Of a stretch of DNA of 64,000 nucleotides, positions 31,201 through 52,273 are shown piece after piece (within the stretch, counting starts at the first letter, position 1; every line of letters starts with the position of its first letter). The notes under the pieces were generated by a model. That model was not told the origin of the DNA and searched no databases. It worked only from the letters and a program-made list of their open reading frames with translations. Made by a program: the position numbers and the translations under genes. The DNA comes from a virus. Location of the stretch: the IMG/VR virus record IMGVR_UViG_3300022752_002570, positions 1-64,000 of that record. One strand, written 5' to 3'.

Positions 31201-33163
31201 CATCGGTAATGTCATCTAACATGGTAGTAAGATGATCTCTTAATTCGGATAATGTAAAATCTTTTACAGGGCCATTAAGAGGATTATTAACCATACTTAA
31301 AGGAATTTCATAATATCCGTTTAAATTAGGCTCTTGGTCTGTAAAGATCTTAATTGCCACTGTATCATTTGCATCTAACTGATTATCTAAAGTTACAGAT
31401 GACGCGGTAGAAGAGGCAGTAAACGCACTTCTTAATAGTTGATCATTTTTATAAACTGCTATTGACGTAATAGATGCTGCCTCTATTGGAACATCTAAAG
31501 ACTTTATATAAAGAGTACTGGTTGTTTCAGATACAGTTTGTATTTCAACTATTGGCAAATGATATTCAGTTTCTTGTTGCCATACATTGAATAATTCACT
31601 TGTTTCATAATTTTTTAAATAAGTGTTAGCAACAAGTTTAGTAGAACTCTGATTATTTTCTTTAATGTTGAAAGAATCTGTCATAAAATAATTTTTAAAT
31701 AGAAAACTTCCTATGCCCGAACTATTTTGATATTTTAAAGGAAATCCTAGCACAGTATCACTGGCACCTATACCCACGTCATAGCCAAATAATCTTGTGC
31801 CTAAAAAATTAGACTGATATGTTGCAGTATTTGAATAACTTACGCCATCATTATCAAATACATCAAAAAGTGGAAACTGATTTATTGTTGTGTGCTGTTG
31901 TGCTAGTTTCCACGAATCAGATTCTGTATCAAAATACCAACTTGTACCTCCATAGGTATTTCCAAAATTAATTGACACACCTACACTGCTAGTTGTTAAA
32001 GATGTAACTGTAGTTAAAATTATTGTAGATGTTGTTCCTGTCGTATAAGAAACTTGAAAAATTTTATTTTTATTATCAGGATCAGTATTAAAAATTAATC
32101 TATTTCCTGCTTGTATCAATGTTCCGTCAATATAATATCCATAAGAACCATTTACAGTTGCAAACGCATCAGCAGTATTATTATCAATTAAATCTACATT
32201 TTCTAAACCTACTGTACCGTGATTGTACAATTTAAGATTGGGTCTGAATTCTACAATAGGTCTTTTTGCACGTTGGTTAAAATCAAACAATACTGGTGTT
32301 TGATTAATTCCTGCTGTTTTTTCAATAATGTCTTTATGAAACCACCTATTATATCTGGTCCATGAATTATAATCTTTGCTGGCTCTATTAATAGTAATGT
32401 ATTCAGGTACCAATGGTAAACGTTTTCCACCGTCAAAAGGATATTCATCTAATCCATCTGAATCAAATGTCTCGTTGTATACATCTGCTAAGCCTTCATT
32501 ATTTTCTAAATATCTTATGTCAATTAACCTTATACTGTCACCAACTCCCTCAACATAATAAGTATTTTCTCTATAGGTGCTAGGAGTTACCTGAGTACCA
32601 AATACTAATTTCATACCATTTGATAAAGTGTAATTTATTAAATTTCCTTCACCATCAGTATACTGATATGGTAAGGAGTAGGTTGGATTTCCTACGATTT
32701 CAGCATCAACATCTATGCCTAATTCATCAATTACAATAGAATCTGGTCCTTGGGGCAACCAATAATAATCAAAATAATTTACAAGTTTATCCCAATCTAT
32801 ATAAGGATCGTAAGAATAAAACTTAGACCTCATCAATTTATCTAAATTATCTGTATTAGATTGATAAGATTTTAATTCATTTAATAAATCATCAAAGGCA
32901 ATAATATCTGTTATTTCACCAGAAATATTTTTAAGTGTTAGTGCAGGTTCTAAAGAATAATTCTTTTTTGAGCCTTGAGATTCATCAATATAAACATCAA
33001 TGGTAGGATCGTAATTTGGCGTTAACTTTGATCCTACGAATCCGTCTATTCTTTCTACTTCAGGAGTTTGAATAAGATGATCTAATGTACTGGCTAAAAA
33101 TTTTTTATTTTTTTCAGTCTTTAGATATTCGGGTAAAAAATTAACTGATTTCTTTTTAGCCAC
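19205..33163 (-). CDS. giant (4652 aa) baseplate wedge/fibre-like structural protein
   Basis: Uninterrupted 14-kb ORF (GTG start) downstream of the gp6-like gene. Contains FG-GAP-like repeats, CBM5/12-like Y..G.IVRYN motifs, G.GY..AP.V repeats and an IKPYHTK wedge-like motif. Confidence 0.8.
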   Translation of the reverse strand: MAKKKSVNFLPEYLKTEKNKKFLASTLDHLIQTPEVERIDGFVGSKLTPNYDPTIDVYIDESQGSKKNYSLEPALTLKNISGEITDIIAFDDLLNELKSYQSNTDNLDKLMRSKFYSYDPYIDWDKLVNYFDYYWLPQGPDSIVIDELGIDVDAEIVGNPTYSLPYQYTDGEGNLINYTLSNGMKLVFGTQVTPSTYRENTYYVEGVGDSIRLIDIRYLENNEGLADVYNETFDSDGLDEYPFDGGKRLPLVPEYITINRASKDYNSWTRYNRWFHKDIIEKTAGINQTPVLFDFNQRAKRPIVEFRPNLKLYNHGTVGLENVDLIDNNTADAFATVNGSYGYYIDGTLIQAGNRLIFNTDPDNKNKIFQVSYTTGTTSTIILTTVTSLTTSSVGVSINFGNTYGGTSWYFDTESDSWKLAQQHTTINQFPLFDVFDNDGVSYSNTATYQSNFLGTRLFGYDVGIGASDTVLGFPLKYQNSSGIGSFLFKNYFMTDSFNIKENNQSSTKLVANTYLKNYETSELFNVWQQETEYHLPIVEIQTVSETTSTLYIKSLDVPIEAASITSIAVYKNDQLLRSAFTASSTASSVTLDNQLDANDTVAIKIFTDQEPNLNGYYEIPLSMVNNPLNGPVKDFTLSELRDHLTTMLDDITDVNYDGTNLRDVVGYTKYGTRIIVNSNPLSFASIFLGKSEHNVVDALRKVGNSYLQFKDNFLRKLLFVSADITHAEAVDQILKEINLTKDFNSAYYRSDMLGYGDNKTVKNYTVTNPAVTDYPIGIDFSLSALSFKSVLVYLNGDQLIYDTDYFINIDEVSFNLSLSVNDEIEILVYSNTLGCFVPPTPTKLGLYPKYEPEIFTDDTYIDQNVDLIRGHDGSLLVAYGDYRDDIILEFEKRIYNNIKVQYQPNIYDVRAGIPGAFRNRSLFRPSQDIVNVDFSFWAGINNVDIKTNTAFDYGNEFTYNYTQSVDKIFAEEVPSYWRGIYNYFFDTDRPHSHPWEMLGFAIKPNWWDTHYEWVDNVKRADLIDAIVQGKVSDPTESDEYNIRYARPNFASINPVDSSGNLVGPLAVVSNNADNVKILGWIYGDGAPSETAWKNSSYWPYAVNIISLLLNPADYLSALFDTSRIALNIKNQVTYTEDDLYLDPRKIILDGENNNQSSGYSIMVIEAGKLKNQNYLQSLRQDLDNLDYNLFYKLGGFTSKEKLQINIDSVDPVSTSPGLVVPYEDYNVFLNVSNPVKIASASGMIIQKQNGKFVLKGYDLEKPYFDVLLPFKEATSPALTVGGISEDFTEWSGITQNKNLKLTASETSTANASPTTRFYREGQIVRYNNRFYRSKVGHNPGSTFDSSLWYSLTTLPLKGGVTVQTSRKFSPTTTRYFYGSEIPTIQEVYDIITGYGKFLEQEGFIFDDYSTDLEQNIDWKYSAKEFLFWCTQNWADGNIITLSPFANAFKYFYDNSIVDDVKTGRFAYNLLKADGKSFPIENFSLIREDSACRIQTKNTEEGIFFVKLVLIQKEHAIVFNNTTVFNDTIYDIETGYKQRRVKLSGFRTKNWNGDFYSPGFVYDNLIITDWSSLKNYTIGDIVRYNGSYYQANKRIEPSTNFDFKKWSLLNEKPVPDLLPNFDYKINQFEDFYSLDIDNFDAGQQKLAQHLIGYTPRTYFNNIFTNPISQYKFYQGFIKDKGTKNAIDKLSKASRYLNKGEVTFTEEWAFRTGYYGGFSNYDEIEFTLPEGTTLENPYLVKFADQVPTDVGPLENYVTPNDLLLTPQDYSSSNVFPVITPESTIVPGGTFLDSPNSPGGTYNETGIILSTAGYVRLDDVTATAYNKNSLLDIAKNNQIQNRSTIWTGFLENGDWSVYRYSKNKAKVTGVYVSAPGANITFSTNLHHNLSVGDIVSIVNFNEQVNGVYIVESVPQLSQFTVQSSLTSIQNQEQLAYGNLFVFESARFTRLSDLRNKKQLFDLDEGELIWVDSGIDNRWQVYEKSNQFPVEYIRSVDSPSAQELGYTIWAADNTDKFLVAVPNFNTTATQSYGRVKVYDRIDQSITKLFEYTLNTYDIQYCNPAKPTEFGYAMAYDVGKNYLIIGAPRASNVKGLSSLEFRPTNVTFSIDILVSNSATVTSSSGEAVGSNAFIASPEEVTWNMTVGVTTSTVYSTAGTFTSATRIFDDEGLVKISSIGPYNDAEVVEAVLTNPLGQYSTSSNKVRFGHSIYINEATTSASTLLIVSAPGTEGVGNQLYVYPTSVTFAMSTGSTASVISSTSTNISTGTTGNVFAYRIRKNNGLQIGAFASGLNVLSTSSVALKVGDQWGYKVSGNSTGTYISVSAPGYKDENSSGLVQIFRFINNGIYHNQTIFSPYGTSGNFGKDQIISYTGKYLVVSAPDYRNLDTSYGSVKVYQLGTNRRYSLLQTIDNPIAGSDLRFGHSLSLNKAETKLLISGLGTNRSIEIKFDENSKSGITTFDGGTTKFKDLIPDSGTVYAYQRLGTYFVPGNEIVDTAIQEGSKYGFDVVSTNKYSYVGAPFNKLSTGTDNSMAFVFDMPEILTVKHQQPDLVDISSIERIALIDSYKEEVSEYLELIDPLKGKISGLAEQEIKYKSPSDPAIYSIGRPGNIVDDKNNWLDDHVGELWWDLSTLKYIWYEQGDDIFRKNNWGKLFPGATIDIYEWVRSDLLPSAWAAQADTNQGTSNGISGQPKYPANDVVSVKQIFNAVTGSFENVYYFWVKNKLLLPDVKNRRLSSYQVANLIADPQANGVKFVQVLSSSSVAFTNVQPLLVDNRISANMSFTYDNPIPRHTEWLLLNEGNQNSVPNALLEKKLFDSLLGEDTSGNPVPDPILSFRNRYGLGIRPQQTLFKDRVEALRNIVVFSNDVLSKEQIVGKYELDTLLLKDEIPSESEGRYDILIDSILELDSIDTSNIRQAVISCTVNNGKIDNVNVIDSGKGYIFAPVVTIKDTNTSAELVSVLDESGKIIRVDITNAGTEYATAPLLEVRPFTAILTSNPDDGGRWTVHEYNNASETWFKVSTQKFRTEDYWDYIDWSASNYNQYKIFSYVVGIPSDIALYNDTTDGTYIKINNNGNGKYVIVEKVSDNGNFTKYFNSVYVQDGTIKILDKVWNDAEAADNYDEAGLADNLYDQSNTIELRNILTALKNDLFVGDLKVNWNLLFFVAVRYALTEQKLLDWAFKTSFVNVVTDLGVLDQRPVYKLDNEQYFEDYIKEIKPYHTKIRNYNSKYNTIEFYDGNITDFDLPTVYDQTLNEYKPITILSTTSATVFTLTNTLTNVYPWKYWTDNYTYYVKEILVADGGQNYTQRPVVELITVNGDYGTGATAEAFIRAGKVYKVIVTNPGSGYVFAPVAQLTGGGAGVIPAALSVVMDNDTIRKNKIGLRFDRISKGVEITDTYVTDKFDCTGEQNSFVLTWLANPDKSTITPTIDGKLVFATDYKLEYYKEDYEGLYTKEFTRLTLLKSVPLAGQTFKVIYKKNIKLFNAVDRIEQYYSPTPGMLADNLTDLVSGLDYPLTTYEGMMFDQTAPWGTTTYDSAPWDDIVSELVTVKLLQDIDTTATTITVNTTTGITTGQSIIIGNTSTIKIRPETIVTEIDSSTNVITISSPVYDLKTVLSTDTSIGSLIEFTTKKQFRGDIKVGDVVLINGIITGGYNGQYVVSTTTNNKFYTTATQVLSSTTTQLSTPATARVLSILSTISSITSVLDKVVQSSTGTSTLQIFTYALYSQIATATVSFSSGSPSWYIASSSGTVQRAIVNISGLNPSVRTTATVTILGNTDIDFWKYNLSPDQLTVNLDGGQYTNGIKTSALGTTATDNIVQGGGWIKPVGQYYGYKLTTNVPGSTASNYADAIDRYYLRYLYRHADQVGLDYWVQTIVDGNNTLESVEANIKVSAESTQINASFNPDGLINPFRSYAPEEFVPGDTKDSLSITVYTRPERISPIMFNGVIYNIAGQETTATLQLVTDEIPAGLIVTFNGKPLSRVDNYPLPFDLDNQVYFLEGNRITIGAQTVGGRIGYSYVTASSDTGLDSQYVYVNSTSTQTATLISDMPFNGVGSVFVQLNGNQQIGPYSVGTGLGYVLEPVGNVNKRAKITVNEIAAGRNEVTAWFFRNRIDTFNRIKETYYNISTSTVSIPLDPVPFNLEPISTQVIVEKLTGNPYSPRTRLLPPDTSYYKITGNQLTFDINNNKSGAAYNNQNVKVYVNGYEIRPGFDFVVNAATETITIIQNVVAFNDVIAIMDLTDYDYVIINRILYLKNAVTSGAIKVTSFTDHDGMGLRTERFDRTHNNEYTLDMPVINENYIWVTANDKALIAGYDFYVKPDLQTIVIGNDVPMTTGSKVVIVSVNPANYDNTVIAYRLFKDIFDRQSFRRVSNFFSTKLAHPLNYYDDSIHVEDGSMLFSPNPSKNIPGVVFIDGERIEYFVKNGNELTQLRRGTFGTGTPWYSAEGTLVFDQSVKQNVYTEETVNIQNIPTTYLTLYNISTVTNTSSFSINTTTHAGSGISLLTTSTHGYVPAYVDQVDVYYGGRKLRKTELKLHYNERAYDTTSSVYYNNETTSSYDVLPPEYTIEVDTSQTLLLNISEEIVPGTQITVIQRKGRVWDISTASILVSTSTQAKFLRKGPAQLPSSYYYGGNLELTDETNAPLTEDDGDLLQGL

Positions 33164-44003: not shown

Positions 44004-44912
44004 ATGACCTCAACTGTAAACCTTGCCGGTAAAAAAGTCAAGTATCTAAATAATAGAGACTTATTATCGGAAATACACAAAAGTAAATGCAGTTTTTCAA
44101 GTTTTAGCAAAAAAGAATACAGCCAACACGACATTATTCTACCTTCTTTGAATAAAATTAATATCAGAACTATCGCTCAGGCCAAAAAAAACCGTGCCAA
44201 AAGATTAGGCCTCGAAACATTTATGGAGGCAAGAAACTCTGGAGATAAAAAAATTAAACTAGCGGATTGCACTGTTGACTATAAAACCATATCAAAATTG
44301 GATCTTGTTTTTAGAATAATGACATTTGAACATGTGCCATTGGCGCCTGGTAGAAAGAAAACTACCAAAACTACAGCAGACAGTCACGACAAAGTAAACT
44401 TTCCACCGTTTCAGCATTGGAAATTTGATGATTCAGAAGAACTAGTATGTGTAGGTAAAAGCCACTGGAAAGGAACTGTAAGTAAAGGAAAATTTTCAAA
44501 GGATCACGGGCGCATAACTGAAAATTTAGGTAGAATGTTTTTAAAACTTTCAGAACGTTATGCCCATCGTTCAAACTGGAGAGGATATACCTATATCGAA
44601 GAAATGAAGGGTCAGGCAATTTTACAATTGAGTCAGATAGGATTACAGTTCGACGAATCCAAATCAGAAAATCCCTTTGCCTATTACACAGCAGCAGTTA
44701 CTAATTCATTTACTCGTATTTTAAATATTGAAAAGAAAAATCAAAATATTCGAGACGACATGTTAGAAGAAGCAGGACTAACTCCTAGCATGACGCGACA
44801 ATATCAACACGAATTTTTGGAAGAAACTGCACGTCAAGCCGAACTGTATAAAAATATCAGATTACCAAAAAGTGAAGATACTCCGGAAGAAGATGCAGAA
44901 GTCGAAGCTTGA
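44004..44912 (+). CDS. late-transcription sigma factor, T4 gp55-like
   Basis: YLNNRDLLSEI N-terminus. LGRMFLKLSERYAHRSNWRGYTY.EEM, FDESKSENPFAYYT....NSF.RILNIEKK. Syntenic with gp47-gp46. Confidence 0.8.
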   Translation: MTSTVNLAGKKVKYLNNRDLLSEIHKSKCSFSSFSKKEYSQHDIILPSLNKINIRTIAQAKKNRAKRLGLETFMEARNSGDKKIKLADCTVDYKTISKLDLVFRIMTFEHVPLAPGRKKTTKTTADSHDKVNFPPFQHWKFDDSEELVCVGKSHWKGTVSKGKFSKDHGRITENLGRMFLKLSERYAHRSNWRGYTYIEEMKGQAILQLSQIGLQFDESKSENPFAYYTAAVTNSFTRILNIEKKNQNIRDDMLEEAGLTPSMTRQYQHEFLEETARQAELYKNIRLPKSEDTPEEDAEVEA

Positions 44913-44957: not shown

Positions 44958-45971
44958 ATGAACCTTTTTAAAAAGGTAGCCTGTTTTACCGACATACACT
45001 TTGGTCTAAAATCAAATTCTACCACACATCTTAAAGACTGTGAAGAATTTGTAGACTGGTTTATAGACACTGCAAAAAAAGAAGGTTGTGAAACTGCGAT
45101 CTTTCTAGGTGACTGGAGTCATAATCGCAACAGTCTTAATCTAATAACTCTAGATACCAGTCTACGTTGTTTAGAAAAACTTGGACAATCATTTGAACAG
45201 TTCTTTTGGTTTCCTGGTAACCACGATCTATATTATAAGGACAAACGTGATATACATAGCAGTGCGTTCGGACGTCACATACCCGGCGTAACTATAGTAG
45301 ATTCTGTTACCACTCTAGGCAATGTTACATTAGTTCCATGGCTAGTAGGTGATGAATGGCAGGCAATGAAAAATGTAAAAAGCAAATATGTATTTGGACA
45401 TTTTGAATTGCCACTATTTTACATGAACGCAATGGTTCAAATGCCAGACACTGGCGAACTGAGAGCAGAATACTTTAACGGCCCTGATTACGTATTCAGC
45501 GGTCATTTTCATAAAAGACAAAGTAGAGGTATAGTACATTACATAGGTAATACTTTCCCGCATAATTTCTCAGACACATGGGACGATGAAAGAGGTATGA
45601 TGACTCTAGAGTGGAGTTGTAAACCTCAATATCATAACTGGCCTAATGCTCCAAAGTACAGACATATAAAATTATCTGATCTAATTGATCAAAAAGATAC
45701 TATAATGAAAAGTAAAATGTATCTTAAGGTAAATTTAGACATTGATATTAGTTTTGAAGAAGCTAATTTAATCAAAGAAACATTTACCAATGATTATGAT
45801 ATTAGAGAGATCAGTCTTATACAGGATAAAGTTAACCTTGATGGTACCTATGAGGACAATCCTGATACGCAGTTTGAGTCTGTCGATCAAATTGTTTCGG
45901 AACAATTGATTAACCTCGAAGGTGATCAATACGATAAAAAACTCATGCTTGAAATTTACAACAATCTATGA
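44958..45971 (+). CDS. recombination nuclease subunit, gp47/Mre11/SbcD-like
   Basis: Metallophosphoesterase motifs DIHFG, LGDW, GNHD, GHFE, SGHFH. Confidence 0.92.
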   Translation: MNLFKKVACFTDIHFGLKSNSTTHLKDCEEFVDWFIDTAKKEGCETAIFLGDWSHNRNSLNLITLDTSLRCLEKLGQSFEQFFWFPGNHDLYYKDKRDIHSSAFGRHIPGVTIVDSVTTLGNVTLVPWLVGDEWQAMKNVKSKYVFGHFELPLFYMNAMVQMPDTGELRAEYFNGPDYVFSGHFHKRQSRGIVHYIGNTFPHNFSDTWDDERGMMTLEWSCKPQYHNWPNAPKYRHIKLSDLIDQKDTIMKSKMYLKVNLDIDISFEEANLIKETFTNDYDIREISLIQDKVNLDGTYEDNPDTQFESVDQIVSEQLINLEGDQYDKKLMLEIYNNL

Positions 45972-47752
45972 CATTTCGAATAAAAAATCTAACCGTAAAA
46001 AACTTTATGAGCGTGGGTAATCAAACCCAGGCCGTTGATTTTAACAAGGCTAATCTAACTTTAGTGCTAGGATCTAATCTCGACCTAGGTGGTGATGATA
46101 CTGGCAGTAGAAACGGTACTGGTAAAACTACTATCATAAATGCTCTCAGTTATGCACTTTACGGGCAGGCATTAACTAACATTAGAAAAGAAAATCTTAT
46201 CAATAAGATAAATGGTAAGAATATGTTGGTCACTGTTGAATTCGAAAAAAATGGTCTCCAATATAAAATTGAGCGAGGTCGCAAGCCTAACATACTTAAA
46301 TTCTTTGTTAATAATCAAGAAATACAAAACACACATAATGAAGATGAAAGCCAAGGAGATAGCAGAGAGACACAAAAGTATATTGAAGAAATGCTGAACA
46401 TGAGCCATACCATGTTCAAACATCTGCTAGCCCTTAATACCTATACTGAACCTTTTTTGGCCATGAAGGCCGCAGATCAAAGAGAAGTTATTGAACAACT
46501 TCTAGGTATCACAATCTTATCAACCAAGGCAGAAGCACTCAAGAACGTTGTAAAAGAAACTCGAGATTCAATACAACAGGAAACCTTTAAAATAGAAAGC
46601 ATTAAAACTGCTAACGAAAATGTTCAAAAGAGCATTGACAGCCTGCATATCAAAAGTTCTGCTTGGGAAAATAAACATCAAACTGAATTAGAAAATCTAG
46701 GTCGTGCCATTGTTAATCTTGAATCTGTTGATATTGAAGCAGAATTACAGGCACACAAAGATCTAGCCATATGGTTAGAGAATGATCGCAAACTGACTCA
46801 ACTTAGAAAACAAATGGCTACATTAGAAACTGCGGTCATGCAGTCGGCTAAAAGTGTAGACAAATATTCTAAAGACTACAACATGCTGATGGGAAAAACG
46901 TGTCCGTCATGTAAACAAGGTTTACAAGATCATGACCACGAAGACATGATTAAAGAAGTTTCAAAGAATCTAGCAGACGCTAGCGAATATGCAGGCAAGG
47001 TAACATATGAGTACGGTCTAGTGGTCAATGAAGTTGAAGCAATCGTTAAACAGCCTAGGAAACCAGATACCTTTTATGAAACAGAAGCAGAAGCATTAGG
47101 TCATAAAAATAATTTAAGTAATCTAGAAAAGGCTCTTATAGAAAAAGACAACGAAGGAAACCCTTACCAAGAACAGATTGAAGAACTACAACGCACAGCC
47201 ATTCAAGAAATTGATTGGACCAAGGTAAATGAACTAACTAGGTTGCGGGATCATCAAGAGTATCTATACAAATTATTGACAAATAAAGATAGTTTTATTA
47301 GAAAAAAGATTATTGATCAAAATTTAACATATCTTAACAAACGTCTAACATATTATATCGATAAACTTGGCTTGCCTCATAAGGTAGTTTTTCAAAATGA
47401 TCTCAATGTAGAAATCACTCAGTTAGGACAAGAACTAGACTTTGACAATCTAAGTCGAGGTGAACGTAATAGATTAATTTTATCTATGAGTTTTGCATTT
47501 CGAGATGTATGGGAAGGCCTATATCAAAGTATTAATCTATTGTTTATTGATGAACTTGTTGATGCAGGTATGGATAGTGCCGGTGTGGAAGCAGCACTAG
47601 CAGTTCTAAAGAAAATGAGTAGAGAAAGAAATAAAAATATCTATCTAATTAGTCACAAAGATGAACTTGTTGGCCGTGTTAACAATGTTCTTAGGGTGAT
47701 TAAAGAAAACGGCTTTACCAGTTATTCAAATGATCTAGAGTATGTTGACTGA
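45968..47752 (+). CDS. recombination ATPase subunit, gp46/Rad50/SbcC-like
   Basis: KNFMSVG, NGTGKTT, CPSC zinc hook, LSRGE signature, LFIDE, ISHK. Confidence 0.93.
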   Translation: MTFRIKNLTVKNFMSVGNQTQAVDFNKANLTLVLGSNLDLGGDDTGSRNGTGKTTIINALSYALYGQALTNIRKENLINKINGKNMLVTVEFEKNGLQYKIERGRKPNILKFFVNNQEIQNTHNEDESQGDSRETQKYIEEMLNMSHTMFKHLLALNTYTEPFLAMKAADQREVIEQLLGITILSTKAEALKNVVKETRDSIQQETFKIESIKTANENVQKSIDSLHIKSSAWENKHQTELENLGRAIVNLESVDIEAELQAHKDLAIWLENDRKLTQLRKQMATLETAVMQSAKSVDKYSKDYNMLMGKTCPSCKQGLQDHDHEDMIKEVSKNLADASEYAGKVTYEYGLVVNEVEAIVKQPRKPDTFYETEAEALGHKNNLSNLEKALIEKDNEGNPYQEQIEELQRTAIQEIDWTKVNELTRLRDHQEYLYKLLTNKDSFIRKKIIDQNLTYLNKRLTYYIDKLGLPHKVVFQNDLNVEITQLGQELDFDNLSRGERNRLILSMSFAFRDVWEGLYQSINLLFIDELVDAGMDSAGVEAALAVLKKMSRERNKNIYLISHKDELVGRVNNVLRVIKENGFTSYSNDLEYVD

Positions 47753-48047
47753 AGAATTAGAAAAATACAATGAAATGTATCGCAAAATGATTGATCATTT
47801 AGTGACATTGCATAATGCAAATATTACTTTCCAAAAGTTTCAAGGTAGAGATCGTGCTAACGATGTTAAACGACAGTTTAGAGGCATTATGAAATTAAGT
47901 CGCGAATTGATAAAGCAATGCAGCAAAGTCAGTCGAGAGGGTTCTGATCGAAGAAAACTTATAAGTACTCAAAGGAAAGAAGCCAAACGACTAAGGCAAC
48001 AACAAAGACAAAAAAATGTGGCTGTATCAGGGGGAAACAATCAATGA
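47742..48047 (+). CDS. basic helical hypothetical protein
   Basis: 101-aa ORF overlapping both neighbours, K/R/Q-rich. Confidence 0.6.
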   Translation: MLTEELEKYNEMYRKMIDHLVTLHNANITFQKFQGRDRANDVKRQFRGIMKLSRELIKQCSKVSREGSDRRKLISTQRKEAKRLRQQQRQKNVAVSGGNNQ

Positions 48048-48447
48048 ACTACCAGAAACTTGCGTAGGATTCGTGTATATTATAACTAATACAGTAACAG
48101 GCAAGATGTACATAGGCAAAAAACTTAGTAAATTTTCAAAAACAACTTATAAAACTGTTAAATTAAAAAACGGCACTAAGAAAAAGAAACGAATTAAATC
48201 TAAAATATCCTCAGACTGGCAGACATATTACGGCTCAAACGATCATCTCAATCAAGACGTACTAAATTTAGGCACAGATAAATTTGTAAGAGAAATATTA
48301 TACTTTTGTAATTCAAAGGCAGAATGTTCCTATATTGAGGCACGTGAACAATTTACTCGCAAAGTACTAGAATCAGACGAATACTATAACGGACAGATAT
48401 CTGTTCGTGTCCATGGCTCACACATCAAAGGCAAACTAAACGGTTAA
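48016..48447 (+). CDS. stand-alone GIY-YIG endonuclease
   Basis: GFVYIITNTVTGKMYIGKK, YYGS, F.REIL, conserved E (YIEAREQ) and YYN. Lys-rich insertion. Confidence 0.85.
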   Translation: MWLYQGETINELPETCVGFVYIITNTVTGKMYIGKKLSKFSKTTYKTVKLKNGTKKKKRIKSKISSDWQTYYGSNDHLNQDVLNLGTDKFVREILYFCNSKAECSYIEAREQFTRKVLESDEYYNGQISVRVHGSHIKGKLNG

Positions 48448-48448
48448 C

Positions 48449-48860
48449 GGCTAGCGCAGGCTAATATCATGCGCCCTAGACCTGGATCTCAGATCGCAGG
48501 GACGGAATGCTCACCGCCGTAGTGAGAACTCAACCACTACCCGAAAGGATGACGATCACTTAACTGCTGTGATTTGGTTGTTTGAAGTAGAAGGAGCAAA
48601 AAGACGCAGAAGTGATTCTGCACGTTCATATGATGAGGTAGTGTTCGTTATATGAGCCGCCGTTGTAATAAAGCCTGAACGAGTAGGTACCGGACAACCG
48701 CCTACGCTAAACTAGTTCTAACACTATGTGACTATGCTACTCAGATGATGCATACCTTTGCCCGCCCTGGGCAAAGAGTGACCACTTAATCTAGATGATA
48801 CTAAAAGACAAAAAATGCTTCGAGTCTCGTAGACGAAGAAGCAAACGAACGTAGTTCGTT
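48449..48860 (+). ncRNA. candidate large structured non-coding RNA, family unknown
   Basis: No ORF of 60 aa or more in any frame. About 10 consecutive helices, GNRA tetraloops (GAAA, GUGA), a 14-bp helix with 4 G-U pairs that work only on the + strand, and long-range complementarities. Confidence 0.65.
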
Positions 48861-48862
48861 AC

Positions 48863-48868
48863 TAAATA
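48863..48868 (+). promoter_or_regulatory. late promoter box TAAATA
   Basis: Lies upstream of ORF 48890. The same box precedes most structural units. Confidence 0.55.
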
Positions 48869-48889
48869 TTGATTATTCCGGAATAATTT

Positions 48890-50200
48890 ATGCGATTACA
48901 TCAAGCACTAGGTCAACAGACTATCTTTGAAAGTATAGGAGGAACTGATCCCTACTTCAAAACATGGCAACGAGACATACATCCCGTATTATGTGAAGTT
49001 GCTCTAAACCCTGATCAGATAAATCAATTATTCAAATCTATAGAGAAGGGTGGAGGAAGATCTCTTCTAGGTAAAGCCAAAGATGCTATAAGTGGTGCTA
49101 CAAATAAAATTAGTGATGTATGGTTTAATAAGTTTGGAGGAATGTTGCAGAGCAGTGGACCTGTTCAAGCATTTGATCAAAAATTTGAAGAAATTAAATC
49201 CAGTATTGCAGCGAAGAATCCTAAATTGGCCGCAAAGTTAGCCAAATATGGAGAGTTTGCTAAGAACAATCCTAAATTACATAAGTTTTTATTAGCCATT
49301 GGAGGATCTGTAGCCGCTGCTGTAGGTGTTACTGTTGCGGGTGGAGTAGGCGCAGGTGCTCTAGCAGTGGGCACAGGTGCCGGTGTTGCTACTGGTATCA
49401 TTAACATTGCTGATCGTTTATTACAAGGGCAAAAAGCATCAACTGCTATTGGACGTGGAGCCACTACAGGACTAGTAACAGGAATAACTGCTGCTGCCGC
49501 TACTAAAATTCTTAGTGGTGTGGCCAACAGTTTTAAGGCAGAATATGTTAATACAGTTCGAGGTGAGCGATTAATGAACGGAACATTTGACATCAATGGT
49601 CAGTGGACTTTTGTTACTGGCAGACCGGAAGATGTTAGGGCTCTCGGACAAGCCATGGATGCAGAAAACTATCAGTTATTCTACAGTCTTGTAGAAAAAA
49701 TGAGGTCACCTGAATATGTAAAAGGTTTAGAAGCATCTCAAGAAATTATAAAACAGGCCACTCAAAACTATCAATCCACGGCAGGTGTAATTAAAACTCT
49801 AGCACAGGCTGCAACAGCAGCCGCAGGTGGTGCAGCCAGTGCGGCTACAAATCAACAACCTAAAGAAAGTTTATCAGAAAATAAAATTTATGAATTATTT
49901 GGCATAACCGGTAACAAGATAGATGCTAGTAAATTAGAAAAGGCATGGAAGAAGGCAGGAAGTCCTACGGACAGTGATGAGATTGCGAAAATCTTACAGG
50001 GTGCTGGTGTGGATCCTACAATTATTTCACAGGCATTTAAGGAAATAGGAGCACCTACACCTCAAGGCCGTGTAGAACCAACACTAGGAACAGACACCAA
50101 TACAACAGCCCAGCCAATAAATACAAAAGATATTGTAGCCAGGATAAAAAAATTACCTCCTGATCAACAAAAAATCTTAATACAACTATTAAAAGCATAG
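48890..50200 (+). CDS. putative virion internal/ejection protein with Gly/Ala-rich hydrophobic segment
   Basis: 436 aa. FLLAIGGSVAAAVGVTVAGGVGAGALAVGTGAGVATGII glycine zipper. Late box upstream. Confidence 0.55.
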   Translation: MRLHQALGQQTIFESIGGTDPYFKTWQRDIHPVLCEVALNPDQINQLFKSIEKGGGRSLLGKAKDAISGATNKISDVWFNKFGGMLQSSGPVQAFDQKFEEIKSSIAAKNPKLAAKLAKYGEFAKNNPKLHKFLLAIGGSVAAAVGVTVAGGVGAGALAVGTGAGVATGIINIADRLLQGQKASTAIGRGATTGLVTGITAAAATKILSGVANSFKAEYVNTVRGERLMNGTFDINGQWTFVTGRPEDVRALGQAMDAENYQLFYSLVEKMRSPEYVKGLEASQEIIKQATQNYQSTAGVIKTLAQAATAAAGGAASAATNQQPKESLSENKIYELFGITGNKIDASKLEKAWKKAGSPTDSDEIAKILQGAGVDPTIISQAFKEIGAPTPQGRVEPTLGTDTNTTAQPINTKDIVARIKKLPPDQQKILIQLLKA

Positions 50201-50208
50201 GAACTACA

Positions 50209-51186
50209 ATGAGAATACATGAAGTTATTGTTTTAGACCCGCAGATAAATGAAATTAGCGCCTTTGGTGCAGGATCAGGAATAGGCAAAGTTGCGGGAAA
50301 CGTTGTAGGAGGTGTAAAAGATTTTTGGGCAGGCGCTAAACAGGGCTATAAAGATGCAAGAGCGGGATTTGTAACAGGACAAGGAGCAGGCACTACTGCG
50401 GCAACAACTGGCACCAATACACCCCAAGCCTCTGCTTCTACGGCTGGAACTGCTGCTCCAACATCTGGCGCAGCATCAGCACCTAGTGGACAGGCAGCGT
50501 CTGCTGCACCACAACAGGCACCTACACAACAGGCACCTGCACCTCAAACTACACCGGATGAACTAGACGATTTAAAGGCAACTATTGCAAAACTAAATCC
50601 CGAGCAGAAACAAGAAATTGCCTCACAACTACAGCAACCTGAAATAGAACAACCGTCAGCGCCTGCGGCAGGTGCAAAAACAGAACCTTTTGTTGATCCA
50701 CGCAGTGCAGCGGCAAGAGGTCAGAAAGATCAAGGATTTGGATTTAATAGAGACACTGGTGTGGCGTTTAAATCACAAGCAGAAAAAGATGCTTACAATG
50801 CATCTAATCAGCAAGATGATGATGATTTTGAACCTGATTGGAATTTTGGTAAAGATTCTAATGCTCCGTCTCCTGGAACTGCGGTTAATATAGGACAGGT
50901 TAAACAGCAAAGCGCCCAACAAGCACAGGCAGCACAGGCAGATAAACAAACTGCCCAACAACAGATAGCAGCCACACAGGCCGCTAACGCAGCCAAGGCT
51001 AAACAAGATGCTGCTATCAAGGCCGCTAAAGATGCTGCTATGGCCAAGCCTGCGTTTCAACAGACTGCATCAGATAGGTTAGCAATCAAACAAGCCAAGG
51101 ACAGAGGTATTAGAGAATCTAAAAAATCCAAGAAGAAAAAAGTCGTTGCAGAATTTAATAGTAAGTTTCTAGGAATAACAATTTAA
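50209..51186 (+). CDS. Ala/Gln/Pro-rich hypothetical protein, possibly head-internal
   Basis: 325-aa low-complexity ORF with AGGA SD and MRIHE N-terminus. Confidence 0.6.
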   Translation: MRIHEVIVLDPQINEISAFGAGSGIGKVAGNVVGGVKDFWAGAKQGYKDARAGFVTGQGAGTTAATTGTNTPQASASTAGTAAPTSGAASAPSGQAASAAPQQAPTQQAPAPQTTPDELDDLKATIAKLNPEQKQEIASQLQQPEIEQPSAPAAGAKTEPFVDPRSAAARGQKDQGFGFNRDTGVAFKSQAEKDAYNASNQQDDDDFEPDWNFGKDSNAPSPGTAVNIGQVKQQSAQQAQAAQADKQTAQQQIAATQAANAAKAKQDAAIKAAKDAAMAKPAFQQTASDRLAIKQAKDRGIRESKKSKKKKVVAEFNSKFLGITI

Positions 51187-51419
51187 AAGAACGGCAAACC
51201 AGTCTTTTGGGCAGTTTCTAAATTTTCCTCAATAATTTTACTAAGGATTTCTCTATCTTCCTGGGTAAGTTGGTATGCTTCATTTACAGTAATACTGCCT
51301 CGCATGTACCAACAAATTTTAAATAATTCTCGTTTTATGGCTTTTACATCTTGGTCATAATGATCAACTAGTGTCTTTATTTCCTCAAGATCTAGATATA
51401 AAAGCCTTACACGAAAAAA
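51183..51419 (-). CDS. gp51-like extension ORF in the -1 frame of the gp26-like gene
   Basis: Open frame FFRVRLLYLDLEEIKTLVDHYDQDVKAIKRELFKICWYMRGSITVNEAYQLTQEDREILSKIIEENLETAQKTGLPFF*. It begins at the slippery T-TTT-TTC. The only ATG is internal (51305). Confidence 0.65.
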   Translation of the reverse strand, partial: FFRVRLLYLDLEEIKTLVDHYDQDVKAIKRELFKICWYMRGSITVNEAYQLTQEDREILSKIIEENLETAQKTGLPFF

Positions 51420-52273
51420 GTTGAAGGATCAAAAACTAGAGGAATGGTTATTGTGTCTTGAGTATAACCTTGCATTTTGATATTTTCAGGAGTATCGATA
51501 GTTATAGGTTTAATTAGATTGTTATCTTTTAGTTTATCCAAATGATTCTGTATAATATTGAACATGTCCTTGTCAATGTTATCAATAAATTCTCTTATGT
51601 GTACTATATTTTCTGTACTGCCCGTAGGTGAGTCTATTCTAAATACACTTTCTTTTACAACACCAATAGTGACATCAGTAAGTTTACTAAATGTCTTTTG
51701 AAACATTTCTAATTTTTGCTCTTGACTTAGGCTTTCATCATTGGCCAAATTAAGAATCTTTTGTGTTTCAAAACTTTTTATACTGCTATCACTAATCTGT
51801 TTATAGTTAAGCGGTTTCACATAGACTGTTAAATCATCATTTATTGGAATCACTGGATCCCAATCTATCGTTTGGTATAGATTGTCCATTACAAGACGTA
51901 GATCAACTTCATATTCTAAATTAATATCTCCGGGTAGATTCAACGGAGTACTCATCTTTTCACCGTAGGTAGCAATTCTGATAGCAATTAGAATTGCATC
52001 AAGATCTATACTTGGCGTCATCCATGCATTTTTAATATTCGGCATACAATTTTGTATTGCATCTACTACTGCTTGCCCGTTCATAATAGCGTCTGGAACT
52101 TTTAGCAAGAGTTCATCCTTAGCAGTCATAGAAAAAACAGGATATTCATTGTTTTCTGATTTTTCCAAACTACCTGGAGGCCAGTATTCTCCATTACTGG
52201 GTAACCTAATATAAATCTTTGGTTGCCTCATATAATTCATTAAAGGGTTTTGATTTTTTGGGGATGATATCAC
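51407..52273 (-). CDS. baseplate hub assembly chaperone, T4 gp26-like
   Basis: YIRLPSNG, MTAKDELLL, DLDAILIAIRIATYGE, C-terminal IPLVFDPSTFF. GTG start with GGAG SD. Confidence 0.8.
   Translation of the reverse strand: MISSPKNQNPLMNYMRQPKIYIRLPSNGEYWPPGSLEKSENNEYPVFSMTAKDELLLKVPDAIMNGQAVVDAIQNCMPNIKNAWMTPSIDLDAILIAIRIATYGEKMSTPLNLPGDINLEYEVDLRLVMDNLYQTIDWDPVIPINDDLTVYVKPLNYKQISDSSIKSFETQKILNLANDESLSQEQKLEMFQKTFSKLTDVTIGVVKESVFRIDSPTGSTENIVHIREFIDNIDKDMFNIIQNHLDKLKDNNLIKPITIDTPENIKMQGYTQDTITIPLVFDPSTFFV

What the first reader, a model, noticed from the sequence alone, without database searches (positions are those of the whole stretch)
48016..48860. GIY-YIG nuclease followed directly by a ~410-nt highly structured ORF-free region: candidate nuclease-ncRNA system
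Seen in sequence: this is the longest non-coding stretch in a densely coding window, and it starts right after the GIY-YIG stop. Helices are GCGCA/TGCGC (48454-58/48470-74), CCTG-GATC/GATC-CAGG (48481-500), CTCAC/GTGAG (48510-26), and a junction CAACCA/TGGTTG (48531-36/48575-80) enclosing CC-GAAA-GG and GATCAC/GTGATT. Further helices are GCAGAA-GTGA-TTCTGC (48606-21), a 14-bp helix with four G-U pairs (48624-37/48644-57), GTAGG..CGG-ACAA-CCG-CCTAC (48683-705), CTTTGCCC/GGGCAAAG (48756-76) and two terminal hairpins (48816-60). GNRA loops and strand-specific G-U pairs indicate an RNA on the + strand, co-oriented with the nuclease. The protein is a bare catalytic domain with a Lys-rich insertion (KTVKLKNGTKKKKRIKSK) and none of the DNA-binding domains that Seg/I-TevI homing enzymes carry. 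Established: nuclease plus adjacent structured RNA is the layout of IscB/HEARO and TnpB systems. Inference: this may be an RNA-associated or RNA-guided GIY-YIG system, or an independent new large phage ncRNA. I do not recognise it as a known family.
Basis: partly seen in the sequence, partly recalled or inferred. Interest (0 to 1): 0.88.

Follow-up and report, generated by a model that had tools for sequence, protein, structure and literature searches.

The report
Full-length Polynucleobacter-1 twin-box phage RNA
The gene-free stretch behind a small nuclease gene of this uncultured freshwater T4-like phage encodes a real, knotted non-coding RNA of about 410 bases; only its first third was catalogued, its job is unknown, and the nuclease looks like a fixed neighbour, not a partner.

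Summary
Window 48448-48889 is the longest internal ORF-free stretch. It encodes a + strand RNA of about 410 nt (48449-48861).

Its first 135 nt are a full-length match to Rfam Polynucleobacter-1 (RF01718, 117.9 bits against a cut-off of 37). So it is not wholly unknown.

The remaining ~280 nt match no Rfam family. They are conserved in 137 of 200 related loci and are supported by covariation:
- 104 pairs are 92.8% paired, against 37-42% in slid controls.
- 70 pairs carry double changes.
- There are two pseudoknots.

Two identical 7-nt boxes (AGAUGAU, 48743-49 and 48793-99) flank a conserved hairpin. They changed together at least 22, 13 and 8 times on a tree.

The RNA-guided GIY-YIG reading is not supported:
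- A complete 162-kb phage has the nuclease but no such RNA.
- No nuclease residue tracks the boxes.
- A PDDEXK nuclease replaces GIY-YIG in 2 loci.
- Bacterial island copies sit beside DUF6641 and often a short integrase, never GIY-YIG.

Earlier agents of this scan found the same RNA on other genomes. Function remains unknown.

The parts
48016..48447 (+). 143-aa stand-alone GIY-YIG nuclease (SegE-type catalytic domain with a conserved Lys-rich beta-hairpin insert, residues ~39-65). It is a syntenic neighbour of the RNA.
   Evidence: PF19835 at E 8.6e-32, residues 2-128. PHROG 447 at 1.5e-34. AF2 model pLDDT 83.1. VIA-align: 1ln0 Z 7.1, 9u75 Z 6.0, 2wsh Z 4.8, 1ycz Z 4.8. One copy per record in 5 of 5 phage records.
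48449..48583 (+). 5' domain of the RNA, equal to Rfam Polynucleobacter-1 (RF01718): helices P1-P6
   Evidence: cmscan 117.9 bits, cut-off 37, E 5.6e-25, model positions 1-141 of 141. Helices 1-8 are 90.5-100% paired and all but one carry double changes.
48584..48727 (+). Uncatalogued middle domain. It holds hairpin 48606-09/48618-21 and the 14-bp hairpin 48624-37/48644-57. The loop of the latter (48638-43) pairs with 48722-27 (pseudoknot 1). UUGU 48663-66 pairs with ACAA 48694-97 (pseudoknot 2). Further helices are 48676-80/48715-19 and 48683-93/48698-704.
   Evidence: No Rfam match at E <= 10. MI pairs. Helix 12: 6 of 6 pairs with double changes, 95.1% paired. Helix 13: 3 of 4, 96.8%. Helix 14: 5 of 5. 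Coordinates.
48728..48799 (+). Twin-box module: GUGAC (48728-32), box 1 AGAUGAU (48743-49), conserved hairpin CUUUGCCC/GGGCAAAG (48756-63/48769-76), GUGAC (48778-82), box 2 AGAUGAU (48793-99)
   Evidence: Identity covariation of 0.99, 1.0 and 1.0 at three variable box positions. Identical 7-mers in 143 of 144 instances, 139 of them on the RGAURAN pattern. At least 22-23, 13 and 8 joint changes on a tree. Coordinates.
48817..48861 (+). Two terminal hairpins (48817-26/48833-42 and 48843-50/48854-61): the likely 3' end or terminator of the RNA
   Evidence: The last hairpin has 8 of 8 pairs with double changes and is 97.1% paired; the other is weaker at 61-96%. The top MI pairs lie here. The scan calls the second hairpin terminator-like only on the - strand.
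48862..48889 (+). Spacer with ACTAAATA, a late-promoter-like motif 27 nt before the next gene's ATG
   Evidence: xATAAATA or xCTAAATA motifs lie upstream of many genes in the window. NATAAATA is the published late promoter of T4-like cyanophages (passage read in PMC2984593).

Best explanation
What it is. Window 48449-48861 (+) encodes one self-contained, multi-pseudoknotted non-coding RNA of about 410 nt. This is the full-length form of the orphan Polynucleobacter-1 RNA, whose catalogued motif is only the 5' third.

Shown:
- the fold
- the strand
- the two pseudoknots
- the twin identical boxes
- a single copy per phage genome
- its presence, with the same architecture, in genomic islands of freshwater Burkholderiales

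Inferred, transcription. It is transcribed as the last part of the gp55-gp47-gp46-ORF101-GIY-YIG unit. It starts 1 nt after the nuclease stop codon and no promoter motif is conserved in front of it. It ends at the two covarying terminal hairpins. A late-promoter-like motif then starts the next unit.

Inferred, mechanism. It works as a free-standing folded RNA. It displays the same 7-nt word twice (each with a GUGAC 10 nt upstream) on either side of a conserved hairpin. One sequence-specific reader therefore binds twice, as a dimer or as two copies. The word differs between phages (RGAURAN) and islands (such as AGCGAAAG), so it sets specificity.

The nuclease. The GIY-YIG protein is an EndoII/Seg-like stand-alone DNA nuclease occupying a 'small nuclease slot' behind gp46. 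It shares the RNA's transcript by synteny, not as its partner.
For: RNA reality: RF01718 at 117.9 bits. The 3' extension is conserved in 137 of 200 loci. The profile finds the RNA in 174 of 200. One search gives 92.8% paired, 70 of 104 pairs with double changes and 0 of 500 shuffles reaching the score. G-U is 7.1% against A-C 2.1%.

Not a leader for the next gene: a homologue of the 436-aa downstream gene follows the RNA in 16 of 132 loci with room. Many loci instead have convergent genes.

Twin boxes.

No partner in cis:
- No third covarying column appears in the top 90 MI pairs.
- The own box word is not enriched in 697 kb of flanks: 107 hits against 111 per control word, with no positional peak.
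- There is no complement within or between phage and island RNAs.

Nuclease as neighbour:
- GIY-YIG occurs without the RNA in 23 of 77 loci and in a complete genome.
- The best MI of any of its columns with a box position is 0.51 of a possible 0.56 bits for the rarely varying second position. For positions 5 and 7 it is 0.45-0.47 of 0.99 bits. All are in highly variable columns, and none is listed for position 1.
- PDDEXK_15 takes the same slot in L065 and L107.
- Extra ORFs lie between the nuclease and the RNA in 7 loci.
- 69 of 71 gp46-anchored loci have both genes.

Islands:
- 12 of 12 tested bacterial loci are RF01718 at 80-102 bits.
- About 410 nt are conserved there, with the same box-hairpin-box layout.
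- DUF6641 is divergent upstream in 25 of 26 loci.
- A short tyrosine recombinase is downstream in 10 of 16 with room.
Against: - No transcript data: no RNA run is listed among holders. Ends, abundance and independence from the mRNA are therefore inferred.
A protein encoded elsewhere, a host factor, or an intramolecular or intermolecular RNA contact (for example parallel homo-pairs of the two boxes, or oligomerisation) all remain possible.
- Box 1 can also pair with the AUCU before box 2 (48741-46/48789-95, 98.2% paired), but without any double change. The boxes may therefore not be single-stranded.
- Nuclease adjacency is kept across divergent clades according to earlier notes of this scan. 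This sits uneasily with pure chance synteny.
- The MI test for a protein reader has little power against phylogeny.
- RF01718 and my profile could miss a very divergent RNA in the 'RNA-less' genome.
Confidence: 0.6

Rival explanations
1. Nuclease-RNA partnership. The RNA binds the bare GIY-YIG domain, perhaps through its Lys-rich beta-hairpin. It supplies target recognition or control, with the twin boxes as the programmable part.
For: - The nuclease lies on the same strand upstream in 115 of 118 RNA-anchored loci with room, and is directly adjacent in 109.
- The protein has no DNA-binding domain and has an invariant basic hairpin.
- In 2 loci another small nuclease (PDDEXK) sits in the same place.
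- In bacteria a short (192-aa) tyrosine recombinase with only the catalytic domain is often nearby.
Against: - GIY-YIG occurs without the RNA in 23 of 77 loci and in a complete 161,882-bp genome.
- No GIY column tracks the boxes.
- Replacement by an unrelated fold argues against a co-evolved interface.
- Bacterial copies have no GIY-YIG, and only 10 of 16 have the recombinase.
- No box-matching site lies in the flanks.
- The linkage is one synteny block.
- T4 EndoII shows that small stand-alone GIY-YIG enzymes exist (their biochemistry is recalled).
Confidence: 0.08
2. Homing-site explanation of the linkage. The highly conserved RNA gene, or the gp46 end, is the home of free-standing homing endonucleases. 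On this view GIY-YIG and PDDEXK genes lodge beside it for selfish reasons, as SegB does in the T4 tRNA cluster (recalled). The RNA's own function is separate.
For: - Two unrelated nuclease families occupy the same slot.
- PHROG homing-endonuclease families match weakly (4.1e-12 and 1.7e-08).
- The slot also accepts other inserts.
- The nuclease is found without the RNA.
Against: - The gene is not sporadic. It is in 69 of 71 gp46-anchored loci, single-copy, and 70-87% identical across relatives with an invariant motif set.
- It lacks the DNA-binding domain that Seg enzymes use.
- Only one RNA locus (L031) has no recognised nuclease upstream.
Confidence: 0.2
3. Cis-regulatory leader or riboswitch for the downstream gene. 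This corresponds to the 'cis-reg y, switch ?' entry for Polynucleobacter-1 in Weinberg et al. 2010.
For: The table row in PMC2864571 (passage read). In this window a + strand gene starts 28 nt after the RNA.
Against: - The downstream gene is not conserved: a homologue of the 436-aa protein follows in 16 of 132 loci with room, and many loci have convergent genes directly after the RNA.
- Two covarying terminal hairpins and then a late-promoter-like motif separate it from the next gene.
- In bacteria the next + strand gene is 0.85-1.5 kb away.
Confidence: 0.03
4. A DNA-level element (replication origin, attachment or recombination site, protein-binding iterons), with the twin boxes acting as iterons or core sites.
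For: - The direct repeats evolve in concert.
- The neighbours are DNA enzymes.
- The hairpin between the repeats could form in single-stranded DNA.
Against: - Compensatory changes run through 70 of 104 pairs, including long-range pseudoknots.
- G-U is three times as common as A-C, which favours one transcribed strand.
- Rfam's covariance model scores 117.9 bits.
- No further box copies lie in the flanks.
Confidence: 0.03

Closest known systems
Polynucleobacter-1 RNA motif (Rfam RF01718; Weinberg et al. 2010, Genome Biol 11:R31, PMC2864571; table row read)
   Same: Window 48449-48583 matches the whole 141-position model at 117.9 bits. The habitat agrees: the table gives 'Burkholderiales, fresh water/estuary', and the best DNA holders of this stretch are freshwater or lake metagenomes with word shares of 0.76, 0.74 and 0.55. 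Bacterial copies score 80-102 bits.
   Different: The catalogued motif is only the 5' third. Here, and in the bacterial loci, about 270 further nucleotides are conserved and covary, with two pseudoknots, the twin boxes and terminal hairpins. None of this matches any Rfam 15 family. The 2010 table marks the motif as a possible cis-regulator, which the variable downstream genes do not support. The paper's supplements, which may list its gene contexts, could not be read.
Large ornate phage-linked RNAs (GOLLD, ROOL)
   Same: A large, multi-pseudoknotted orphan RNA carried by phages and by bacterial mobile DNA, with highly conserved unpaired nucleotides and no known partner.
   Different: There is no Rfam match to them. 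This RNA is smaller (~410 nt), is not next to tRNA genes here (0 tRNAs in the window), and has the twin-box feature. Whether it oligomerises, as cryo-EM showed for those RNAs (recalled), is untested.
IscB/TnpB omega-RNA and IS110 bridge-RNA systems
   Same: A structured RNA is encoded next to a small DNA enzyme, and it has short variable segments that could carry specificity.
   Different: The enzyme is a GIY-YIG fold, not RuvC/HNH or DEDD. Co-occurrence is not obligate. No transposon ends or guide-matching sites were found. The two variable segments are identical to each other, not two different guides.
T4 endonuclease II (DenA, PDB 2wsh) and Seg/I-TevI GIY-YIG enzymes
   Same: GIY-YIG fold: I-TevI catalytic domain Z 7.1, rmsd 2.8, 82 aligned; EndoII Z 4.8, rmsd 3.7, 82 aligned. 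Small size like EndoII (134-residue chain) and a T4-like phage context.
   Different: No sequence match to any PDB chain at E <= 1. It lacks the DNA-binding domains of Seg and I-TevI. It carries its own conserved Lys-rich beta-hairpin.

Membership tests
Rfam RF01718 Polynucleobacter-1 | Covariance-model score at or above the gathering cut-off (37 bits) over the whole model | tested here: met
   117.9 bits, E 5.6e-25, model positions 1-141 of 141, window 48449-48583 +. Repeated by the genome search.
Rfam RF01718 Polynucleobacter-1 | Model helices kept by compensatory changes among homologues | tested here: met
   Helices 1-8 (the 5' domain) are 90.5-100% paired. Double changes occur in 4 of 5, 0 of 1, 2 of 2, 4 of 8, 2 of 3, 6 of 8, 1 of 2 and 4 of 6 pairs.
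Rfam RF01718 Polynucleobacter-1 | The RNA is limited to the ~140-nt motif | tested here: not met
   A conserved, covarying RNA continues for about 270 nt more in phages and bacteria. The window's RNA is a member whose family model is incomplete.
GIY-YIG nuclease superfamily (Pfam SegE_GIY-YIG, PF19835) | Profile match over the catalytic domain, and the GIY-YIG fold | tested here: met
   E 8.6e-32, 110.4 bits against a cut-off of 25. The four best structural matches are all GIY-YIG enzymes. The Y21/Y32-I33-G34 motif residues are invariant or nearly so.
Seg-type free-standing homing endonucleases | C-terminal DNA-binding domain beside the catalytic domain | tested here: not met
   143 aa. The Pfam match covers residues 2-128 and no second domain is found. 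The model's tail, residues 129-143, has low confidence.
Seg-type free-standing homing endonucleases | Sporadic presence among close relatives | tested here: not met
   Present in 69 of 71 gp46-anchored loci with room. One copy in each of 5 records.
RNA-guided nuclease systems (IscB/TnpB omega-RNA type) | Obligate co-occurrence of nuclease and RNA | tested here: not met
   23 of 77 GIY loci lack the RNA. The complete genome G006 has the nuclease, no RF01718 match and no profile hit at E <= 10.
RNA-guided nuclease systems (IscB/TnpB omega-RNA type) | A guide segment matching a target or element end | tested here: inconclusive
   The own box word is not enriched in 697 kb of flanks, nor in bacterial loci. 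7-nt words have little power, and targets could lie in a host genome.
Group I intron with homing endonuclease | Intron core fold and flanking exons of one gene | tested here: not met
   No intron family at E <= 10 in 48400-48950. The RNA lies between a complete nuclease ORF and unrelated, variable downstream genes.
Type III toxin-antitoxin RNA (ToxI-like repeats) | Tandem repeats of the whole unit followed by a toxin gene | tested here: not met
   Only GUGAC and the 7-nt box recur; the spacers differ. No conserved gene follows. No PADLOC search was run.

The most novel reading that the evidence does not exclude
The RNA is a portable specificity module for DNA enzymes that lack their own DNA-binding domain: GIY-YIG or PDDEXK nucleases in phages, and a 192-aa catalytic-domain-only tyrosine recombinase in islands. 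Its two identical 7-nt boxes would pair with the same short word in two DNA partners or half-sites, much as the 6-8-bp overlap of tyrosine recombination must be identical in both sites (recalled). This would be a new class of RNA-directed DNA cutting or joining. A milder variant: the island copy is driven by a T4-type late promoter (TAAATA 55-70 nt upstream in 26 of 26 loci). It would be switched on by infecting T4-like phages and compete with the phage's own RNA.
Probability: 0.05. Interest if true: 0.95.

Novelty: new variant of a known kind. Interest (0 to 1): 0.6.

Why it matters
Polynucleobacter-1 has been an orphan motif since 2010. The only paper in the searched library that names it is the discovery paper.

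This window and its relatives show that the catalogued motif is the 5' third of a ~410-nt RNA with two pseudoknots. The RNA is shared by giant freshwater T4-like phages (two complete genomes of ~350 kb) and by genomic islands of their likely host group.

Its two boxes are always identical to each other although they changed at least 8-23 times per position. Identity covariation of this kind is rare in RNA. It points to a reader that binds twice, or to an unusual RNA-RNA contact.

Either outcome gives a concrete experiment for a large orphan RNA. Limnohabitans sp. Bal53, titled without a MAG label, carries two copies (loci L205 and L219).

For annotation, the Rfam model should be extended. The 'RNA-guided GIY-YIG' idea should not be propagated without biochemical evidence.

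Tried and rejected
1. tRNA or tmRNA: none in the window.

2. Other Rfam families in 48400-48950 at E <= 10: only a chance sR18 row at 13 bits.

3. Named phage records: blastn of 48016-48900 against 50,697 phage records found nothing.

4. PDB sequence search with the nuclease: nothing at E <= 1. Foldseek gave no match at E <= 0.001. VIA-align was needed.

5. Expression: no RNA holder listed among 24 runs. Read laying was not used, because only DNA contigs were on offer.

6. Partner of the boxes, all negative:
- GIY protein columns
- own flanks
- bacterial flanks
- complements within or between phage and island RNAs: observed 2 and 8 against shuffled-word means of 4.7 and 6.5

7. An apparent third box copy in the bacterial GGAGACAGCGAAACC segment does not track the boxes in L214 and L203. 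That segment aligns with the phage segment holding the ACAA arm of pseudoknot 2. I dropped it.

8. DUF6641 as a shared protein partner:
- It is absent from 5 phage records; the tool warns that nothing rang anywhere.
- There is no profile similarity to the nuclease: hhalign probability 0.23%, P 0.26.
- The only aligned stretch is the Lys-rich hairpin. An HMM of that hairpin scores DUF6641 ORFs at E 2.5-33, like unrelated ORFs.
- The DUF6641 model has no clear structural relative: best Z 5.0 at rmsd 7.5-10.

9. A promoter in front of the phage RNA: TATAAATA with at most 1 mismatch within 120 nt upstream in 13 of 93 loci, at scattered positions. The sigma-70 scan is no better than shuffles: 5 found against 3.4 +/- 2.1.

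10. Literature:
- 'Polynucleobacter-1': 1 paper.
- 'DUF6641': 0 papers.
- Two wider searches, listings only, showed nothing on this RNA.
- One preprint was checked by term search, with no hits.
- Supplements of Weinberg 2010 were not readable and may list gene contexts.

11. Correction: window coordinates in my notebook entry 2 for features 3' of ~48590 were 3-11 nt too low. They are corrected in entry 4.

12. The RNA-anchored and GIY-anchored locus sets overlap in contigs, so their counts are not independent.
Full report
**What is in the window.**
The window is part of an 81,861-base IMG/VR virus record that CheckV rates 23% complete. Around the finding the gene order is T4-like:
- a late sigma factor (PHROG 12791, 3.9e-84; 44004-44912)
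- a gp47-like phosphoesterase (44958-45971)
- a gp46-like SMC/AAA protein (45968-47752)
- a 101-aa ORF (47742-48047)
- the 143-aa GIY-YIG ORF (48016-48447)
- 442 ORF-free bases
- two low-complexity ORFs (48890-50200 and 50209-51186)
- a convergent baseplate-hub gene (51407-52273)

The ORF-free stretch is the longest internal one in the window.

The + strand folds better than its shuffles (z -3.11, 0 of 100). The - strand does not clearly do so (z -1.57, 4 of 100).

**Part of it is a known family.**
Rfam 15 gives one hit in the whole window. Polynucleobacter-1 (RF01718) matches 48449-48583 on the + strand at 117.9 bits (cut-off 37), covering the whole model. Nothing else in 48400-48950 reaches E 10 apart from a chance snoRNA row. 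The only paper in the library that names the motif is its discovery paper. Its table lists it as 'RNA y, cis-reg y, switch ?', from Burkholderiales and fresh water or estuary (passages read, supplements closed).

**The RNA is three times longer than the catalogued motif.**
- The nuclease protein found 574 relatives, of which the best 80 were kept.
- The 306 nt downstream of the Rfam match hit 137 of these 200 loci by blastn.
- A profile of the whole 435 columns hits 174 of 200.

I aligned the window with 94 full-length instances that are under 92% identical to one another. RNAalifold and a mutual-information scan gave a structure of 104 pairs. On that structure:
- 92.8% of 9825 cells pair, against 37-42% with slid partners.
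- 70 pairs show changes on both sides.
- The covariation score is 0.370 against 0.157 in shuffles (0 of 500).

Two helices cross others, so there are two pseudoknots. The loop of the 14-bp hairpin (48638-43) pairs with 48722-27; 6 of 6 pairs carry double changes. UUGU 48663-66 pairs with ACAA 48694-97; 3 of 4 pairs do. G-U cells outnumber A-C cells 7.1% to 2.1%, which fits a + strand RNA. The last hairpin (48843-61) is among the best-supported helices, with 8 of 8 pairs showing double changes.

**Twin boxes.**
Three column pairs covary by identity, not by complementarity: GG 49/AA 45/GA 1, GG 51/AA 44, and UU 66/AA 24/GG 5. They belong to two copies of a 7-nt word. In the window this is AGAUGAU, at 48743-49 and 48793-99. 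Each copy lies 10 nt after a GUGAC, and the two flank the conserved hairpin CUUUGCCC/GGGCAAAG.

A regex finds identical 7-mers in 143 of 144 instances. Four of those picks are off-target words, leaving 139 on the pattern [AG][GCA]AU[AG]A[UAG]. On a FastTree built from the alignment without the box columns, parsimony needs at least 22-23, 13 and 8 changes at the three positions. The joint states need no more than the single columns, so the two copies changed together.

Box 1 could also pair with the AUCU before box 2 (98.2% paired). That helix never shows a double change, so it is neither supported nor excluded.

**Is the nuclease the partner?**
For:
- In the RNA-anchored set, 109 of 120 loci have the GIY-YIG gene directly upstream.
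- 6 more have it 690-1836 nt upstream with other ORFs between. 3 lack it and 2 are cut.

Against:
- In the GIY-anchored set, 51 of 80 have the RNA directly behind, 3 have a far or weak hit, 3 are cut, and 23 have none. In most of those 23 a + strand ORF of 287-437 aa starts at the nuclease's stop.
- Five RNA-less records gave no RF01718 match. One is a complete 161,882-bp genome with terminal repeats. I fetched it whole. My profile finds nothing there at E <= 10, and its only long ORF-free gap is a cluster of 7 tRNA genes.
- Among 129 loci, no column of the nuclease alignment carries more than 0.51 bits about any box position, and those columns are highly variable.
- In 2 of the 3 GIY-less loci a 172-aa PDDEXK_15 nuclease (1.1e-27 and 3e-28) sits in the same slot.
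- An independent sample anchored on gp46 shows both genes in 69 of 71 loci with room. The linkage within this clade is therefore inherited synteny.

Each of five phage records, two of them complete at ~350 kb, has exactly one RNA and one such nuclease.

The protein itself is a GIY-YIG catalytic domain. T4 EndoII, a 134-residue stand-alone enzyme, is among the four best structural matches (Z 4.8). A bare domain alone is therefore no argument for an RNA guide.

**Not a leader for the next gene.**
A homologue of the 436-aa protein follows the RNA in only 16 of 132 loci with room. Elsewhere other + strand ORFs follow, or convergent 72-aa and ~282-aa genes directly.

**Bacterial copies.**
The same pattern found 30 stretches in bacterial genomes. 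Most are freshwater Burkholderiales (Limnohabitans, Polynucleobacter, Comamonadaceae). They include a complete 2.43-Mb chromosome and contigs of about 0.7 Mb. Three short MAG contigs are of the phage type with GIY-YIG upstream. One further locus (L213, a Clostridium MAG) matched the pattern but not the profile and was left out.
- 12 of 12 tested loci are RF01718 at 80-102 bits.
- About 410 nt are conserved among them.
- The alignment with the window shows the same layout, including ACUC-word, hairpin, AUCU-word, with words such as AGCGAAAG or AUCGAAAG.
- Twins were found in 18 of 26 loci. Four of the 8 misses are truncated.

None has GIY-YIG. A divergent DUF6641 gene lies upstream in 25 of 26. 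A 192-aa tyrosine recombinase (PF00589, 1.5e-24) lies downstream in 10 of 16 with room.

All 26 have TAAATA 55-70 nt before the model start, and by eye I saw no conserved -35. Fourteen read NATAAATA and twelve read GCTAAATA. The same kind of motif precedes many genes in the window. NATAAATA is the published late promoter of T4-like cyanophages (PMC2984593, passage). That the island RNA is switched on by an infecting T4-like phage is an inference only.

- The own box word is no commoner than other loci's words in 697 kb of flanks: 107 against 111 per word, with no positional peak.
- Bacterial flanks hold no consistent extra copy.
- Complements are not enriched within or between phage and island RNAs.
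- DUF6641 is absent from the phage records and is not detectably related to the nuclease. Its model has no clear structural relative.

Candidates are a dimeric protein encoded elsewhere or by the host, or an RNA-RNA contact of the two boxes.

**Verdict.**
A real, large, pseudoknotted RNA is present. It is a member of Polynucleobacter-1 whose family model is incomplete, and it carries the twin-box feature. The nuclease is best read as a fixed neighbour in a small-nuclease slot behind gp46.

The same RNA was reported by earlier agents of this scan on other genomes. I had reached the structure, the twin boxes and the bacterial context before reading those notes. I reuse their word 'twin-box'.

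Tests I did not see in the notes shown:
- the complete RNA-less genome
- the PDDEXK replacement
- the gp46-anchored sample
- the parsimony counts
- the TAAATA motif of the island copies
- the negative tests for a box partner

Noticed in passing
L202-L231 (bacterial loci), 55-70 nt upstream of the RF01718 start: All 26 bacterial copies of the RNA have an invariant TAAATA, and by eye no conserved -35. Fourteen read NATAAATA and twelve GCTAAATA. This resembles the late promoter of T4-like phages, so the island RNA might be transcribed by an infecting phage's late machinery. A further hairpin lies between this motif and the Rfam start.
   Followed up: partly
L065:1669-2184 (-) and L107:13758-14273 (-): In two phage loci a 172-aa PDDEXK_15 nuclease (PF24608) replaces the GIY-YIG gene directly upstream of the RNA.
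   Followed up: partly
L094:5115-6488 (-): A 458-aa radical SAM / B12-binding protein and a 151-aa ORF are inserted between the GIY-YIG gene and the RNA. Six other loci have inserts of 228-334 aa; the three I scanned have no Pfam match.
   Followed up: partly
window 48016-48447, residues 39-71, versus DUF6641 residues 47-79 (L204:4194-4628 -): The nuclease's Lys-rich beta-hairpin and the long beta-hairpin of DUF6641 share a loose motif (F-x4-[YF]-[KR]-T-V ... [ND]-G ... W). The similarity is not significant (hhalign P 0.26; HMM E 2.5-33).
   Followed up: yes
window 19205-33163 (-): A single ORF of 4652 aa lies among other large minus-strand ORFs of 1128, 768 and 1144 aa. It was not examined.
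   Followed up: no
window 48890-51186 (+): Two ORFs rich in Ala, Gly and Gln (436 and 325 aa) have no PHROG match. They fill a variable slot between the RNA and the convergent baseplate-hub gene. Homologues of them follow the RNA in only 16 and 13 related loci respectively.
   Followed up: partly
window 47742-48047 / 48016-48447: The 101-aa ORF overlaps the start of the GIY-YIG ORF by 32 nt. It has no Pfam or PHROG family and is found upstream in 24 related loci.
   Followed up: no
L210 and L231, about +448 from the RNA start: Some bacterial copies have a further copy of the box word about 52 nt after box 2. Some members may therefore have three units.
   Followed up: no
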